UHGV virus genome: UHGV-0814049
Origin: a virus
Strand: one strand, 5' to 3'
DNA length: 12,537 nt
Shown here: positions 2,114 to 12,537 of the stretch, piece after piece
How positions within the stretch are numbered: position 1 is the first letter of the stretch
Layout: the number at the start of each line of letters is the position of its first letter
Notes under the pieces: model-generated
Told to the model about the DNA's origin: nothing
The model's database searches: none
The model's input: the letters and a program-made list of their open reading frames with translations, nothing else
Program-made: the position numbers and the translations under genes

Positions 2114-2814
2114 CAGTCAATCAACCCATGAGTCCGTAATGCATCTTCCAGAGCTTTGATCCGCTGCCGCGCCTGCTGCAATCCTGTAGCCATAGCCGAC
2201 ACCTCAGACCGTGTGTATGTGGCACTTACCGTGTATGTCTGGTTAGCGTTGAATGAGCCGCGAAGAGCCGTACCTGTAGCCGCTGTCCACCCTGTCTGAC
2301 GAGCACCAATAACCTTGGTGCCGCCGACCGAATAGGATGTTGTTACATTGAGGGGAGATGCCAGCGATTGTGTTGCAGTGGCTGTTTTCGATACATAGTC
2401 GTCCTGTAATGCAGAAATGTTGCTCTCAGCAGTCGTAACCCGGCCATCAAGAGCGCTGACGTCAGCCTGTAAAGTGACTATTTCTCCTTCAGCCGTGGTT
2501 AGTCTGACATCCAGCGACGCGATTGCATTGGTATTTGCAGTAATACGGATTTCATGGTCGTCTACGTCGATGCGGAGCTGACGAATTCTTTCTTCGTGAT
2601 CGACCAGAATCACATCCTGCTCATCGTTCCTGACTTGTGCGTCATAAGCGCCCTGTCCGGCCTCGTTGGCCTTGTTCGCCACGTTACCAACATCAGTACC
2701 CTGTGCGATAACGTAAAGCAGATACGACTGCGAGAAGATATTGCGTGGAAGGATTGATGTATCGAGCCGCGTAGCTTGAATGATTACCGGCACATTGAGA
2801 TTCGAATCCGCCAT
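2113..2814 (-). CDS. tail needle / cell-envelope-penetrating protein, P22 gp26 family (233 aa)
   Basis: Translation [43 protein letters not shown]...LRTHGLID closely resembles P22 gp26 as I recall it, and has the same 233-aa length. Start overlaps the upstream stop (TAATG). Confidence 0.9.
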
Positions 2815-4233
2815 TACTCAATCCTTATCTGGCTGCCAGACAGAGTGACAGGTGACTTCGTGATAACGCGCAATTTGAAGCCAACATTTTTCCTGATGCG
2901 CCCTACTCGCTTCCACAAAACGCGTTTGTCGTAAACGAACGGTTCATTCTGCTCAATCATCTGCTCACGCCCGTAATTGATGCCGTCAGTGGTTGCAGAG
3001 AGAAAAAGGCGGTCAGCATACTGCGCAACGCCAGTTGACGACTCAACCTCAAGGTCGAAAACTCTGGCGTTATCCGCTTTGAACAACGGAGTAAACAGCA
3101 GGTGTTCCTGTTGCTTGTCGTACTGGCTGCTGATATCGAACTGCAATCTCCCTGTCATCGATTCAAGCTTATCGCCGCACGTAATTTGGTTGCCTTCGTA
3201 AATGAAGTCGATAGCGCGGTACACATCGTCATACAGGCCTGTTTTCAGTACACACCATTGCGGACCATTGGCGCTTGAAGATGCGTCGTACACGAGGACG
3301 TGGCGCGGCAGGTGAATAATCAGCAACTCATGAGCATCAAACCGCAACGATTCCATCACGCCATCAGCCAGTTCATCAGCAGTGTAGGAGCGGAGGATTT
3401 TCTCAATGCTCGCGCTGGCGATTGGTGATACCTGACCGGAGCCGATGATGTATACAGACGGCGCACCTGTTGCCGGATTGCTGATGAACGCATACGAGTC
3501 AGCAAACGGCGTTTTGCAGTAAGTTCCGGCGATGCCTTTTTGCACCATCAGTGATGGCTGTGCGACATACAAAGCAGCACCAACGGTGGTTGCACCTGTC
3601 AGGGAAAAATATTCAATCGTCGATGAACCAAAGCAGACGATGAAGTCTCGCCATGTCCCGATACCGATGATGCCGTCCGGCTGAGACTCGGCACGGATAT
3701 TGTGCACTGTAGCGGTCAGGATGCGATTCGTCTTCAAGGTCAGTGATAAACCATGAATCAGTTCCGTCTTTTGACCACGCATAACGCCCACGTAAGCGCG
3801 TAATATCGCGGACTGAGCCTAACTCATACTGTGTGAATCCGCTGTCTGTAGGCCAGTTTGAGACGGTTTTAACCGTGCCATCATAGCGATACTCGACCAG
3901 TTGACCATTAACGCCTACTGCCTGTGATGTCCTACCGTGTGCCATTGATACGCGACCACTTCCGGCAACATCACCGACCTCGCTTTCGCCCTTATACAGC
4001 TTGCCTCCGCACACGCGATATACAGCATTCTGCGCCATGTTGTACTCGACGCCTCGCGATACGCCGTTCACGTCAGAGCGTTTGGCAATGCCCGGGAATG
4101 AGCGAAGATATCCGCTGCTGTTCAGGATTTCTTTGGGTGTAGCCAGCATATTCACTGGCAGATAGTCGATATAGTCGGCATTTCGGAAGTCTTTGCCGAC
4201 ACCTTTCATGAGCGGAAGTTGCTGAATCGGCAT
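2814..4233 (-). pseudogene. gp10-like tail hub / head-completion protein, interrupted by an apparent +1 frameshift near 3694-3700
   Basis: Two overlapping minus-strand ORFs (3613..4233, 206 aa; 2814..3791, 325 aa) in different frames. The first starts MPIQQLPLMKGVGKDF... and reads like gp10 up to ...HPDRYSAQY (codon at 3697-3699); the second frame picks up the protein-like sequence at RAESQPDGIIGIGTWRDF (codon at 3693-3695). Joining gives 179+293 = 472 aa, the length of P22 gp10 as I recall it. Minus-strand text ...CAATATCCGTGCCGAG... would read Y-R-A-E if one C were removed. Could be a true inactivating mutation or an assembly/sequencing indel. Confidence 0.75.
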
Positions 4234-6186: not shown

Positions 6187-7080
6187 TTATTTTTTTGCCT
6201 TTTTAGCGGCGAAATACGGCGTCCAGTCACCAGTTTCCAGCGCCTTGGCTTTCAGTTTGTCGAGGTTGTTGATTACTGCGCCGTTGCTCCCCTTAACTGT
6301 CGGGGTTGTGGCTGCCGTGTTTTTTGCTTTTGGCATGATTCTGGCCTTCGATTCGATACGTTCCAGCAGACGACCAATTGCTACGGGGTTGGTAGCTTCT
6401 GCCAGTTGCTTGCGCAGTTCAGCGTTGCGACCGAGCGCCAGAACAACGATTTCCGGCTTCTCTGACTCAAACAGGATCGCGTTTTGTGTCTCGATGGGGA
6501 TTTCCTCGAGTACGGCCTGTTCTGCTTCCTGATAGCCAGGAACCTTGAGAGCCTTAACACGTTGCTGATATTTGGATAATCGCTCTTGATAGGCAGCCTG
6601 AAGCTCCTGCTCCTTCTGCTTGCGAGCCATCTCCTGTTGCTGGTACTTGCCGTTATCCTCTGCCCACTTAGCCATGCGTTGCTGGTAGATTTCTTCATCG
6701 AAACCGATGTCCTCATCATCCAGTTTTGGCATTCGCGGTGGTTGAGTGATTACCGGCTGCTGCTCGACGGGTTTCTGAGACTGACGCATCAGCTCTTTCA
6801 GCTCACGGTCTTTCTCTTTAATCGTCTTGCGCAGGTGTTTTACCAGTCCATGCTCTGCGCCATCTTCGCTGGTTGGCGAATCCAGCTTTTCGTCACCAAA
6901 GTAGAATTCCTGTTCTGATTCGTCGGCATCAGTTTCAGTAGCTTCCTCTACATCATTGCCGGAGGACTCACTGCCATCTTCTGTTTCGACTTCTTCAGCC
7001 AGTTCGACATCATCAGGAATCTGCTCTGACGCGTCGGTTTCGATTTCAACTTCTGGTGTGTTTTCTGCCATCTGGTCCAT
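6187..7080 (-). CDS. scaffolding protein, P22 gp8-like (297 aa)
   Basis: Located between portal and coat. Very acidic N-terminal ~75 aa, a central charged helical region rich in E/K/Q/R, and a basic C-terminal tail (...ETGDWTPYFAAKKAKK) consistent with a coat-binding helix-turn-helix end. Length close to P22 gp8 (~303 aa). Confidence 0.8.
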   Translation of the reverse strand: MDQMAENTPEVEIETDASEQIPDDVELAEEVETEDGSESSGNDVEEATETDADESEQEFYFGDEKLDSPTSEDGAEHGLVKHLRKTIKEKDRELKELMRQSQKPVEQQPVITQPPRMPKLDDEDIGFDEEIYQQRMAKWAEDNGKYQQQEMARKQKEQELQAAYQERLSKYQQRVKALKVPGYQEAEQAVLEEIPIETQNAILFESEKPEIVVLALGRNAELRKQLAEATNPVAIGRLLERIESKARIMPKAKNTAATTPTVKGSNGAVINNLDKLKAKALETGDWTPYFAAKKAKK

Positions 7081-10785: not shown

Positions 10786-11222
10786 TTTCCGAATAGAGTG
10801 CTCATCGGTGATGTTTCAATCTGGATTGCGCCGCCGTCTTTGCCTGTTAGCTCGTGATCAACCTTATCGCGCCATTTATCCTTCTGTCGGTTCTTAAGCC
10901 AGAAGATGGCGGCGGTTGTATCAGGCGGGTAATACTTCTCAAGCGGAGTTTCGACAATTCTGTTTTCAATAACACGAATATCGATGTCTGGAGCCACGAA
11001 GCCCATAGCGCGTTGATAAAGACGATCACTAACTTCTGCATCAGCGACGGCCTTACCCTTTTTTATGGACTCTAAAAACTCCGGATATTCCAATTTCCAA
11101 TTGTTGATTGTTGCCTCGCTAACTTCAAAGAAGTCCGCGAGTTCGGCGTCTGTATAGCCCAGCAAGCACAGTTTGCGTGCCTGTTCGGCATACGCCTCTT
11201 GATACTTCGTTGGGCGCGCCAT
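10782..11222 (-). CDS. terminase small subunit (146 aa)
   Basis: Immediately upstream of and translationally coupled to the large terminase. N-terminal HTH-like segment (LCLLGYTDAELADFFEVSEATINNW) typical of TerS DNA-binding domains. RBS GGAG upstream. Confidence 0.8.
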   Translation of the reverse strand: MARPTKYQEAYAEQARKLCLLGYTDAELADFFEVSEATINNWKLEYPEFLESIKKGKAVADAEVSDRLYQRAMGFVAPDIDIRVIENRIVETPLEKYYPPDTTAAIFWLKNRQKDKWRDKVDHELTGKDGGAIQIETSPMSTLFGK

Positions 11223-11224
11223 GT

Positions 11225-11467
11225 TTATGCTCCGGTAGTGAACAGGTCTAACGCTTCCTTCGATTTACGCACCGCTTCGATAGTGCGGGTCGTGATATCC
11301 GAATTAGCGCCGCCTGACTGGAAGTGAATTTTGAATAGCTCAAGCTTCAGTTCGTCAGTGCCGATGAATTGAAATGCTTCCTCTGCGGCTGCGTTCTGGT
11401 TCATGACCAGTTTGTAAATCTCTAACTGGAATTTCTGTTCTTCAGCCATGGGAATAATCTCTGCCAT
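11225..11467 (-). CDS. hypothetical protein (80 aa), translationally coupled to small terminase
   Basis: ATG at 11465-11467 with ACGGAG RBS 7 nt upstream. Stop (11225-11227) is 2 nt from the terS start (TAA-AC-ATG). Normal GC content. No recognisable domain. Confidence 0.6.
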   Translation of the reverse strand: MAEIIPMAEEQKFQLEIYKLVMNQNAAAEEAFQFIGTDELKLELFKIHFQSGGANSDITTRTIEAVRKSKEALDLFTTGA

Positions 11468-11714
11468 TGTTGGCTCCGTTTATCCGTTAAAAGGGATATC
11501 AGTTAAGTTATCCCGTGTAGGGTATAAGCCATTGTCGAGACCACTCATTGAATGGTCTCTGCAATAACCGATGTCTTTCCATCAGTCCGCCACCACAAAG
11601 AATCTTTTTTGCCATAAGGCTGGAGGTTCATCTCTCAGTGGCTGCCAGTGTTATTTCCCCACTTACTGGCTTGGGTTGTTTCGCTGTACTGCCGTTAATT
11701 GGTGAGTCCGGGGA

Positions 11715-12200
11715 TTATTTCAGTTCGTTACCAGGCATTTCTTTTAGCTCTTTCAAATGACAACGATTGAGACTAAACCACTCCCCGTGCGACCTATAGT
11801 TGTAATATTTTTGGTGCAATTTGGTTTCAAGCTCTCTATCGGCCGGAATCTTTGCAATTAGATTTAGCTTCCCACCACTCATGCGATATATCTCTGAAAT
11901 TCGTTTATTAACCCTGCGACTAAACCCTATTTTTGTTAGCCCACTATCTTCAGCATGCAGAACGTACACATATGATTTTTGCGAAGCACTGGGTGCGACT
12001 TTGTTGTAATTAATCATGTCAAACATGAAGCCTTGCTTTAGCAAAGTTTCAAAAAAGATAGAATTAACACACCCATTCCTTCTCAGCTCTGCACTTAGCT
12101 TGTCAATTTCCTCTATGATGTCGCCAGACCCCTTTCCACTTATAAGAAAATCTTGGTACATGCGACCAATTCTTGAGGTAATTTCAACAAAGTTATTCAT
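11715..12200 (-). CDS. T5orf172 / GIY-YIG-like domain protein (161 aa) in an AT-richer island; unknown N-terminal ~75 aa
   Basis: C-terminal half has YVYVLHAEDSGLTKIGFS ... R..KRISEI ... ELETKLHQKYYNYR ... GEWFSL, matching the conserved pattern of the T5orf172 domain (YxYxL-KIG-R-E-GEWF) as I recall it. The gene is visibly AT-rich with frequent AGA/AGG/ATA/AAA codons, unlike the flanking phage genes. Separated from the packaging operon by a ~250-nt noncoding gap. Confidence 0.75.
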   Translation of the reverse strand: MNNFVEITSRIGRMYQDFLISGKGSGDIIEEIDKLSAELRRNGCVNSIFFETLLKQGFMFDMINYNKVAPSASQKSYVYVLHAEDSGLTKIGFSRRVNKRISEIYRMSGGKLNLIAKIPADRELETKLHQKYYNYRSHGEWFSLNRCHLKELKEMPGNELK

Positions 12201-12393
12201 AGCGTTTACCTTTTAGAAAGATGAGCCTGTTCGCACAGAAAAGCCGTCCCCGAGATGGTCGCCACCATATACGGCAATTCTCAGGCTCAGCTTTCTGAAA
12301 GACTCGGGATTGTTACGCGCTGCGATGCGCGGTTTACTGCAGATGTAAAAAAGCCCCGCGAATACGAGGCTAAATCCTGGTATTTGTAATGAC

Positions 12394-12537
12394 TGGCTCT
12401 TATCTCAACGCAGCAACTCACAAGACGGGATCGTGAAAGAAATCAAAGGCGCGGACACGTTCATCTTTGGTCATACGCCAGCAGTGAAACCACTTAAATT
12501 TGCCAACCAAATGTATATCGATACCGGAGCAGTGTTC
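12394..12537 (+). pseudogene. 3' fragment of a lambda-type Ser/Thr protein phosphatase (NinI/PrpA family), lacking the catalytic N-terminus
   Basis: Plus frame reads ...[48 protein letters not shown] to the window end, matching the C-terminal region of lambda phosphatase as I recall it. The same frame has a TAA at 12346-12348 and no ATG upstream of the homologous part, so the metal-binding N-terminal motifs are absent. Confidence 0.6.

What the first reader, a model, noticed from the sequence alone, without database searches (positions are those of the whole stretch)
11468..12254. AT-rich moron encoding a standalone T5orf172/GIY-YIG-like protein where a lysis cassette would be expected
The 161-aa protein (11715..12200, minus) combines a C-terminal T5orf172-type motif set (YVYVL...KIGFS...R...E...GEWF) with an unrecognisable N-terminal ~75 aa. 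Its base composition and codon usage differ visibly from the adjacent phage genes, indicating separate horizontal acquisition. It sits directly upstream of the packaging genes, a classic moron/accessory slot in lambdoid phages. T5orf172 domains belong to the GIY-YIG-like superfamily and are common in phages and mobile elements, but their function is essentially uncharacterised. Possible roles (superinfection exclusion, defence or anti-defence, nuclease or DNA binding) are inference only. I see no partner gene on the same strand, so this looks like a single-gene candidate rather than a demonstrable multi-gene system.
Basis: partly seen in the sequence, partly recalled or inferred. Interest (0 to 1): 0.65.

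Follow-up and report, generated by a model that had tools for sequence, protein, structure and literature searches.

The report
Known phage GIY-YIG-type nuclease gene
The gene is real, but it is a near-identical copy of an already annotated and still untested accessory gene of P22-like phages, which most likely encodes a small DNA-cutting enzyme carried in a swappable slot between the cell-lysis genes and the DNA-packaging genes.

Summary
ORF 11715-12200 (minus strand, 161 aa) is intact, matches Pfam MUG113 and T5orf172 above their cut-offs, and is the lowest-GC stretch of the window (0.387 against 0.50).

It is not new. It is 99.4% identical to gene 68 of Salmonella phage epsilon34, occurs in 56 of 5,426 complete E. 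coli genomes, and RefSeq labels it 'GIY-YIG nuclease family protein'.

- It does not stand where a lysis cassette belongs. In intact relatives the cassette lies directly upstream. In this window an inverted fragment of a phosphatase gene abuts at about 12414.
- The 'unrecognisable' N-terminus is a three-helix bundle homologous to the small lambdoid protein HkbL (hhalign E 8.6e-17).
- T5orf172 domains are partly characterised as nucleases and homing endonucleases.

The C-terminal domain models as a GIY-YIG fold, and its Tyr, Arg and Glu motif positions are invariant.

The gene is one of several interchangeable cargo genes (others are Rha or KilA-N plus HkbL) behind a terminator and a conserved structured leader.

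Most likely it is a late-expressed endonuclease used in conflict between mobile elements. That role is inferred, not shown.

The parts
11715..12200 (-). Intact 161-codon gene, ortholog of epsilon34 gene 68 / g341c gene 64 (RefSeq name 'GIY-YIG nuclease family protein').
   Evidence: ORF list. Pfam MUG113 and T5orf172. phrog_4284 full length. 99.4% identity to epsilon34, g341c and NM-3. Present in 56 of 5,426 E. coli genomes.
11997..12200 (-). N-terminal domain, residues 1-68: an acidic three-helix bundle (pI 5.2) homologous to the free-standing lambdoid protein HkbL / phrog_875.
   Evidence: AF2 helices 2-21, 25-41 and 47-68. hhalign A2 against A4: probability 98.8%, E 8.6e-17. BLASTP against HkbL: 33% identity, E 6e-12. 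phrog_875 matched by 10 of 14 family members. Charges.
11739..11972 (-). C-terminal T5orf172/MUG113 domain, residues 77-154: basic (net +6) with a GIY-YIG fold. Invariant residues are Y79, K90, G92, R100, E125, H129 and E140-W141-F142.
12208..12303 (-). Conserved nested hairpin in the leader. Its proximal arm ends in CUAAAAGG (the Shine-Dalgarno sequence), 9 nt before the ATG.
   Evidence: Inverted repeat 12282-12301 / 12210-12229. MFE -41.7 kcal/mol, z -2.48. 24 variants fold alike. 6 pairs with changes on both sides against 1.5 in shuffles, 0 of 500 shuffles reaching that. No Rfam match.
12352..12371 (-). Rho-independent terminator that closes the lysis cassette in relatives, upstream of the gene.
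   Evidence: Terminator scan. Annotated as a terminator at the equivalent position in epsilon34 and HK106.
12196..12414 (-). Leader segment shared with phages that carry a different cargo gene (CUS-3, Sf101). This is the right-hand boundary of the swap.
   Evidence: blastn boundaries at 96.8-97.7% identity.
11468..11717 (-). Downstream segment shared with CUS-3 and Sf101; the left-hand swap boundary is at the stop codon. It holds the last codons of the displaced Rha-type gene and a remnant of ST64T orf118 (11532-11615).
   Evidence: blastn boundaries. epsilon34 misc_feature.
11225..11467 (-). DUF2560 gene (P22 orf80 / HK620 hkbM), a constant neighbour of the slot in P22-like phages. The similarity to epsilon34 stops at its end.
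   Evidence: Pfam DUF2560 E 1.1e-42. Present in 29 of 29 loci of the ~99% tier. Mosaic boundary.
12411..12537 (+). Inverted 3' fragment of a lambda-type Ser/Thr phosphatase gene, joined to the leader through a 4-nt overlap (CAGC, 12411-12414). It replaces the lysis cassette found here in relatives.
   Evidence: Translation. NCBIfam phosphatase models. Mapping onto the E. coli E1 prophage. The junction 26-mer is absent from the genome and metagenome contig collections.

Best explanation
Shown: this is an intact copy of a known accessory gene of P22-like and other lambdoid phages, the ortholog of epsilon34 gene 68. Its product has two domains. The first is an acidic three-helix bundle homologous to the small lambdoid protein HkbL. 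The second is a basic T5orf172/MUG113 domain with a GIY-YIG nuclease fold and a fully conserved motif set (Tyr79, Lys90-Ile-Gly92, Arg100, Glu125, His129, Glu140). The gene is one of several interchangeable cargo genes in a fixed slot between the lysis cassette and the packaging genes; the others are Rha+ORF11CD3, or KilA-N followed by HkbL. The slot lies behind a terminator and a conserved structured leader.

Inferred: the gene is transcribed with the late operon by antiterminated read-through. The protein is a metal-dependent DNA endonuclease made late in infection. It has no DNA-reading head of its own, so the helical domain would serve for self-association or for docking onto a partner, possibly a Bro-network DNA-binding protein. 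Its role would be conflict between mobile elements: it cuts DNA of co-resident or co-infecting phages or satellites, and the resulting breaks also favour its own spread by recombination, in a homing-like way.
For: Identity and family:
- Pfam MUG113 at 4.8e-13 and T5orf172 at 2.6e-09.
- 99.4% identity to epsilon34 gp68.

Fold and active site:
- C-terminal domain model with pLDDT 95.1.
- Motif residues are invariant in 20 full-length and 63 domain sequences, down to about 25% identity.
- Y79, K90/G92 and R100 align with I-TevI Y6, Y17/G19 and R27.

Precedent for catalysis and for the setting:
- ICP1 Odn nuclease, tested with an E180A mutant at the conserved glutamate.
- T5orf172 homing endonucleases, most often found in terminase neighbourhoods (35%).

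Cassette behaviour:
- Swap boundaries at the ATG and at the stop codon.
- Low GC confined to the ORF.
- The ~99%-identical gene is linked to two unrelated terminase types.
- 98.7% nucleotide identity to epsilon34 next to unrelated packaging genes.

Position:
- An Rz homologue ends less than 1 kb upstream in 66 of 72 viral loci. HK106 has the same layout.

N-terminal domain and Bro-network link:
- The N-domain is homologous to HkbL, and HkbL genes follow KilA-N genes in the same slot.
- Distant relatives overlap or adjoin Rha and KilA-N genes.
- The N-domain is acidic and has only one Cys.

Late expression:
- Terminator upstream and no promoter-like site.
Against: - There is no experimental evidence for cleavage by this protein or by any close relative.
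- The second motif tyrosine is a lysine. This follows the KIG pattern that is invariant across the T5orf172/MUG113 relatives aligned here, but it differs from studied GIY-YIG enzymes.
- The equivalence of Glu125 with the I-TevI catalytic Glu75 rests on topology only. The profile alignment was unreliable in that half.
- No target, no partner and no Bro-network gene is visible in this window.
- Expression timing is inferred from annotation of relatives.
- The hairpin covering the Shine-Dalgarno sequence could keep expression low.
- The mosaic boundary at DUF2560/terS also exists in phages that carry other cargo genes. It therefore does not point specifically to nuclease-driven exchange.
Confidence: 0.45

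Rival explanations
1. It is a classical free-standing homing endonuclease. The protein recognises and cuts a specific site in the same slot of phages that lack it, and repair copies the gene in.
For: - It belongs to the T5orf172 family, whose phage members are treated as homing endonucleases and sit near terminase genes.
- It is sporadically present among near-identical backbones: 3 isolated phages among 269 phage records that match the region, and 56 of 5,426 E. coli genomes.
- The motif set is intact.
- The same gene occurs in different lysis and packaging backgrounds.
Against: - It has no sequence-reading domain. 87% of surveyed T5orf172 HEGs carry CapR/DUF723/DUF4397 zinc fingers. This N-domain is an acidic helical bundle with one Cys.
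- At 161 aa it is shorter than I-TevI (245 aa, from memory).
- The slot is never seen empty. The gene replaces Rha or KilA-N cargo at shared flanks, which ordinary homologous recombination explains.
- Relatives at 33-40% identity sit in other accessory zones, between tail genes.
Confidence: 0.2
2. It is a non-catalytic DNA- or protein-binding regulator of the Bro network (Rha / KilA-N / antirepressor type). In this reading the T5orf172 domain only binds nucleic acid.
For: - It occupies the same slot as Rha+ORF11CD3 and KilA-N+ORF11CD3/P63C proteins.
- T5orf172 was first noted as a partner of the Bro-N and KilA-N domains and was predicted to bind DNA (PMC8096241).
- Relatives lie in Arc-controlled Bro-N/Rha operons.
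- HkbL has a basic tail in the place where this protein has the basic T5orf172 domain.
Against: The Tyr, Arg and Glu positions are invariant across 63 diverse sequences, which is what is expected for catalysis. In the one documented domestication, CapR, it is the DNA-binding head that is kept, not the T5orf172 domain.
Confidence: 0.15
3. It is a true moron expressed from the prophage, giving the lysogen defence or superinfection exclusion through a nuclease.
For: - Foreign base composition.
- A terminator separates it from the upstream genes.
- A weak match to a PADLOC candidate system, PDC-S57, at E 1.5e-4.
- One relative lies beside an Imm_superinfect gene.
- The gene is intact in a prophage that shows possible decay.
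Against: - No promoter-like site in 1.3 kb, where shuffles give 2.3.
- No promoter is annotated at this position in epsilon34 or HK106.
- The PADLOC hit covers only the nuclease domain.
- The gene lies inside the late operon, on the late strand.
Confidence: 0.12
4. It is a helper nuclease for DNA packaging, like the HNH protein gp74 of HK97 that assists terminase.
For: The gene lies just upstream of the terminase genes, in the place where HK97-like phages carry their HNH gene.
Against: - HK106 carries both a family member and the HNH gene.
- Terminase genes 97-99% identical to those of this window occur in phages that lack this gene or carry another allele.
- The ~99%-identical gene is linked to two unrelated terminase types.
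Confidence: 0.03

Closest known systems
Gene 68 of Salmonella phage epsilon34 (YP_002533529.1), gene 64 of g341c, and E. coli prophage protein WP_001058931.1
   Same: 99.4% amino-acid identity over all 161 residues. Same leader, same terminator and same DUF2560 neighbour.
   Different: In those genomes a complete lysis cassette lies upstream. Here an inverted phosphatase fragment does. epsilon34 has unrelated packaging genes. None of these proteins has been studied experimentally, as far as the searchable literature shows.
T5orf172 homing endonucleases and the nuclease Odn (Gp88) of vibriophage ICP1
   Same: Same Pfam domain. The arginine and glutamate are conserved. Phage-encoded, and found near terminase genes.
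   Different: The ICP1 proteins carry a DNA-binding head: CapR-type zinc fingers, or RepA_N in Odn. This protein has an HkbL-like helical bundle and no zinc-finger motif. ICP1 is a lytic phage, whereas this gene is in a temperate lambdoid phage.
HK620 HkbL / HK97 p61 (NP_597908) / Stx2-1717 gp50 (phrog_875)
   Same: Homologous to residues 1-68 (hhalign E 8.6e-17). Encoded in the same slot between Rz and the terminase genes.
   Different: These are free-standing proteins of 77-85 aa with a Lys/Arg-rich tail in place of the nuclease domain. They follow a KilA-N gene, often with a 4-base overlap.
HK106 gp64 (GIY-YIG nuclease family protein)
   Same: Same two-domain family and same layout of Rz, terminator, then the gene.
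   Different: Only about 32% identical. It lies in a siphovirus beside an HNH gene. This allele also fills the slot in P22-like backbones that are otherwise 97-99% identical to this window.
I-TevI catalytic domain, SLX1/HIGLE and T4 endonuclease II (solved GIY-YIG nucleases)
   Different: Sequence similarity is not significant (E 0.13-0.52). Lys replaces the second tyrosine. The GEWF strand is specific to T5orf172/MUG113.

Membership tests
T5orf172 / MUG113 (Pfam PF10544 / PF13455, GIY-YIG clan) | Profile match above the curated gathering score. | tested here: met
   MUG113 49.9 bits against a cut-off of 22.3. T5orf172 38 bits against a cut-off of 20.
T5orf172 / MUG113 (Pfam PF10544 / PF13455, GIY-YIG clan) | GIY-YIG-type alpha/beta fold (beta-beta-alpha-beta-alpha core). 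| tested here: met
T5orf172 / MUG113 (Pfam PF10544 / PF13455, GIY-YIG clan) | Conserved motif residues: Tyr of the first motif, the xIG motif, Arg and Glu. | tested here: met
   Y79, K90, G92, R100, E125, H129 and E140-W-F are invariant in A1 (20 sequences) and A3 (63 sequences). The first-half positions align with I-TevI.
T5orf172 / MUG113 (Pfam PF10544 / PF13455, GIY-YIG clan) | Metal-dependent nuclease activity. | not testable with these tools
   Needs biochemistry. The only precedent is ICP1 Odn.
Free-standing homing endonuclease | A nuclease domain joined to a sequence-specific DNA-binding domain. | tested here: not met
   The N-domain is an acidic three-helix bundle with one Cys and no Pfam hit. 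87% of T5orf172 HEGs carry zinc-finger heads.
Free-standing homing endonuclease | Sporadic presence at a fixed site among closely related genomes, near essential genes. | tested here: met
   The alternative state is another gene, not an empty site.
Free-standing homing endonuclease | Cleavage of the allele that lacks the gene, and biased inheritance in crosses. | not testable with these tools
   Needs cleavage assays and phage crosses.
Moron (independently expressed insertion in a phage operon) | Extra gene relative to related phages, with foreign base composition. | tested here: inconclusive
   The composition is foreign. However, the gene replaces an Rha-type gene from its ATG to 7 codons before its stop, rather than being added.
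Moron (independently expressed insertion in a phage operon) | Its own promoter, and usually its own terminator. | tested here: not met
   No promoter-like site in 11200-12537. The only strong terminator lies upstream of the gene. A consensus scan cannot exclude an atypical promoter.
Bro network of domain-swapping phage proteins | Carries or accompanies Bro-N, KilA-N, Rha, ANT, ORF11CD3 or P63C modules. | tested here: inconclusive
   The protein has none of those domains. It does share its slot with Rha and KilA-N cargo. Its N-domain is the usual companion of KilA-N genes. Distant relatives overlap or adjoin Rha and KilA-N genes. None of the Bro-network markers used appears in the 80 viral loci.
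Lysis cassette (holin, endolysin, spanin) | Homology to a lysis protein, or a conserved place inside the cassette. | tested here: not met
   No such Pfam or PHROG match. In relatives the gene follows Rz and a terminator.
Terminase-associated helper nuclease (HK97 gp74 type) | Co-inherited with, and needed by, a particular terminase. | tested here: not met
   The gene is linked to two unrelated terminase types and is absent from phages with near-identical terminases. HK106 has both genes.
PADLOC candidate defence system PDC-S57 | Full-length match to the system's protein model. | tested here: not met
   E 1.5e-4, covering only residues 74-145 and model positions 4-82 of 212.

The most novel reading that the evidence does not exclude
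The HkbL-like head is a docking module that places the nuclease on DNA-bound Bro-network proteins (Rha or KilA-N type). This would give lambdoid phages a split nuclease with exchangeable specificity, used against rival phages or satellites. In addition, the conserved nested hairpin in the leader would be an undescribed cis-acting RNA that controls translation or processing of whichever cargo gene occupies the slot between the lysis and packaging genes.
Probability: 0.15. Interest if true: 0.7.

Novelty: already known. Interest (0 to 1): 0.3.

Why it matters
As a gene, it matters little. It is a deposited and correctly labelled accessory gene that is common in P22-like prophages of E. coli and Salmonella.

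Three points could repay experiments:
- It is a compact T5orf172 nuclease without the DNA-reading head that characterised relatives have. How it finds a substrate is therefore an open question that can be tested directly.
- Its N-terminal domain links it to HkbL, a widespread small protein of unknown function that usually accompanies KilA-N genes. Solving one would inform the other.
- The slot is preceded by a conserved structured leader that several unrelated cargo genes share. This may be a general control element of lambdoid late operons.

Tried and rejected
- Profile searches against PDB sequences gave only non-significant GIY-YIG hits.
- NCBIfam gave no match for the protein.
- tblastn of this protein's own N-domain found only its orthologs. 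A profile search of 5.8 billion proteins found only a truncated copy. The HkbL link appeared only with a divergent family member as the query.
- The junction 26-mer was not found in the genome or metagenome contig collections. An exact-protein look-up found only a 1-kb contig. The source of the window and the reality of the junction therefore remain open.
- The promoter scan found nothing, and Rfam found nothing.
- hhalign against I-TevI was weak (probability 18%) and unreliable for the second half.
- I considered a conserved upstream peptide (MVATISG...) inside the leader and rejected it. Its start and stop are lost in diverged variants and its frame shifts between variants.
- I considered a lysis role and a packaging-helper role and rejected both on context.
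- The literature search for 'boundary sequences' gave nothing on this leader.

Full report
**Observation**

The ORF at 11715-12200 on the minus strand is real. It has 161 codons and an ATG start. It matches Pfam MUG113 (E 4.8e-13, residues 90-154) and T5orf172 (E 2.6e-09, residues 77-154), both well above their curated cut-offs. It also matches phrog_4284 over its full length (E 5e-75).

Its GC content is 0.387 and its GC3 is 0.395. The ten neighbouring genes have GC of 0.47-0.52. The ORF contains the lowest-GC 486-bp stretch of the window, while the intergenic DNA on either side is normal at 0.47 and 0.495.

**Identity**

The protein is 99.4% identical to gene 68 of Salmonella phage epsilon34, to gene 64 of g341c, and to a gene of phage NM-3. 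RefSeq names it 'GIY-YIG nuclease family protein'. The gene with its flanks occurs in 56 of 5,426 complete E. coli genomes. A 90%-identity cluster of the large protein collection holds 249 member sequences. The epsilon34 genome paper gave no hits for 'gene 68', and its moron discussion concerns the ant region. I found no experimental work on this protein.

**Where it sits**

In epsilon34 the order is holin, endolysin, Rz/Rz1, gp67, an annotated rho-independent terminator, gene 68, a remnant of ST64T orf118, DUF2560, and then the packaging genes. The E. coli E1 prophage has phosphatase, Q, holin, lysin, Rz, a 50-aa ORF, this gene, DUF2560, terS, terL, portal. The gene therefore follows the lysis cassette and does not replace it.

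CUS-3 and Sf101 match the window up to 11717, the last base of the stop codon, and again from 12196, four bases past the ATG. Between those points they carry an Rha+ORF11CD3 gene. The last seven codons of that Rha gene survive just downstream of the stop codon here. This shows that the ORF displaced an Rha-type gene.

In 80 viral contigs the family falls into three identity tiers: about 99%, about 60% and 31-34%. In 66 of the 72 contigs with enough flank, an Rz homologue ends less than 1 kb upstream. The split is 28 of 28, 4 of 7 and 34 of 37 for the three tiers. The ~99% copies are linked to two unrelated terminase types, 15 of the window type and 12 of the epsilon34 type.

The window is 98.7% identical to epsilon34 over 11225-12414. 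Outside that segment terS and terL have no real match, and portal and coat are 34% and 29% identical at the protein level. HK106, a siphovirus, has Rz, a terminator, a 32%-identical family member, an HNH gene, and then the genome end.

**The right-hand edge of the window**

Similarity to all relatives stops at 12414. From 12411 onward the plus strand encodes residues of a lambda-type Ser/Thr phosphatase. Against the E1 prophage, window 12300-12414 matches positions 6833-6947 in the forward direction, and window 12411-12537 matches 9917 down to 9791 in inverted orientation. The two matches share CAGC.

This fits an inversion of about 3 kb carrying Q and the lysis genes. It fits an assembly chimera equally well. 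The junction is absent from both contig collections and from all complete E. coli genomes. The gp10 homologue also carries an extra C at 3696 that splits it.

**The protein**

The full-length model has pLDDT 89.3. It shows three helices (2-21, 25-41, 47-68) followed by a beta-beta-alpha-beta-alpha-beta-alpha domain.

**Company it keeps**

HkbL-type genes lie in the same slot directly after KilA-N genes: KilA-N+ORF11CD3 in HK620 and KilA-N+P63C in HK97. They overlap the KilA-N gene by four bases in HK620, Stx2-1717 and a Klebsiella phage.

More distant full-length relatives of the fusion protein lie in other accessory zones:
- P0021 overlaps an upstream Rha gene by four bases, in an Arc-Arc-Bro-N-Rha operon between tail genes.
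- P0018 adjoins a KilA-N+P63C gene.
- P0016 lies between tail genes.

[quoted passage not shown] T5orf172 is described as co-occurring with Bro-N and KilA-N and as lying in the GIY-YIG superfamily (PMC8096241).

**Mechanism**

Published work shows that a T5orf172 domain can be an active nuclease: ICP1 Odn was tested with an E180A mutant at the conserved glutamate. It also shows that phage T5orf172 genes behave as homing endonucleases, most often in terminase neighbourhoods (35%), and that 87% of them carry zinc-finger DNA-binding heads.

This protein keeps the catalytic positions but lacks such a head. I therefore favour an endonuclease whose helical domain mediates self-association or partner docking. 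The terminator upstream and the absence of a promoter-like site suggest it is made late. Its likely use is conflict between mobile elements, with homing-like spread as a side effect.

The identity, architecture and context are shown. Catalysis, timing, partner and role are inferred. Rival readings are scored in the report sections: canonical homing endonuclease, non-catalytic Bro-type regulator, lysogen-expressed defence, and packaging helper.

**A side finding**

The leader holds a nested hairpin at 12208-12303 on the minus strand, with MFE -41.7 kcal/mol and z -2.48. It occurs in 24 distinct variants, down to about 71% identity, upstream of four different cargo genes, and every variant folds alike.

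On a 21-sequence alignment 98% of cells pair. Six pairs changed on both sides, against 1.5 +/- 0.7 in shuffles (0 of 500 shuffles reach that), and slid controls give 0-3. The proximal arm ends in the invariant CUAAAAGG that carries the Shine-Dalgarno sequence. Rfam has no match.

The caveats are that the sequences are closely related, few lineages contribute the changes, and the structure was derived from the same alignment.

**Verdict**

This is a real gene, correctly recognised as T5orf172-like and horizontally exchanged, but already known and annotated. The lysis-cassette framing, the 'unrecognisable' N-terminus and the 'uncharacterised domain' claim do not hold. Interest is modest. The open points are how a nuclease without a DNA-reading head is targeted, what HkbL-type domains do, and whether the leader is a regulatory RNA.

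Noticed in passing
window 12411-12537 (junction at 12411-12414): Similarity to all related phages ends at 12414. From there the plus strand encodes the 3' part of a lambda-type Ser/Thr phosphatase gene, inverted relative to its normal orientation and joined through a 4-nt overlap (CAGC). This fits either a ~3-kb inversion of the Q-lysis segment or an assembly chimera. The junction was not found in any public collection searched.
   Followed up: partly
window 12208-12303, minus strand: A conserved nested hairpin in the leader ahead of the slot's first gene. It is shared by phages with four different cargo genes, shows compensatory changes, and covers the Shine-Dalgarno sequence. There is no Rfam match. 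It may be a translational control element or an RNase III processing site.
   Followed up: partly
window 3696 (gp10 homologue, 2814-4233, minus strand): A single extra C relative to CUS-3 splits the gene for the packaged-DNA stabilisation protein into ORFs of 206 and 325 codons. It is either a pseudogene in a decaying prophage or a sequencing error.
   Followed up: partly
window 11532-11615, minus strand: A 28-codon remnant of the N-terminus of ST64T orf118 (a gp49_66-type gene) lies between the gene and DUF2560. epsilon34 annotates the same remnant, which is a sign of earlier rearrangements in this slot.
   Followed up: no
L014 1498-2249 (HK620), L013 1261-2225 (HK97), L015 1998-2749, L016 1734-2746: Free-standing HkbL-type genes always follow a KilA-N-domain gene, usually with a 4-base stop/start overlap. 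This suggests a two-protein unit of unknown function that is widespread in lambdoid phages.
   Followed up: partly
L078, L079, L081, L082, L088 compared with the window: A second allele of the family, the HK106 type at about 33% identity, fills the same slot in P22-like backbones whose DUF2560 and terminase genes are 97-99% identical to this window. Two very different alleles therefore alternate at one site.
   Followed up: partly
L009 6001-6498 (P0014); also P0004, P0005, P0013: These are truncated or chimeric copies. For example, one fuses YbcO and Rz fragments to the last ~45 residues of this protein in a degraded prophage. The gene evidently decays along with its prophage.
   Followed up: no
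window 12209-12269, minus strand; P0010; CUS-3 ORF ECRS218_0024: A short upstream reading frame (MVATISG...) inside the leader hairpin is sometimes fused to the downstream gene by gene callers. Its start, stop and frame are not conserved across variants, so it is probably an annotation artefact.
   Followed up: yes
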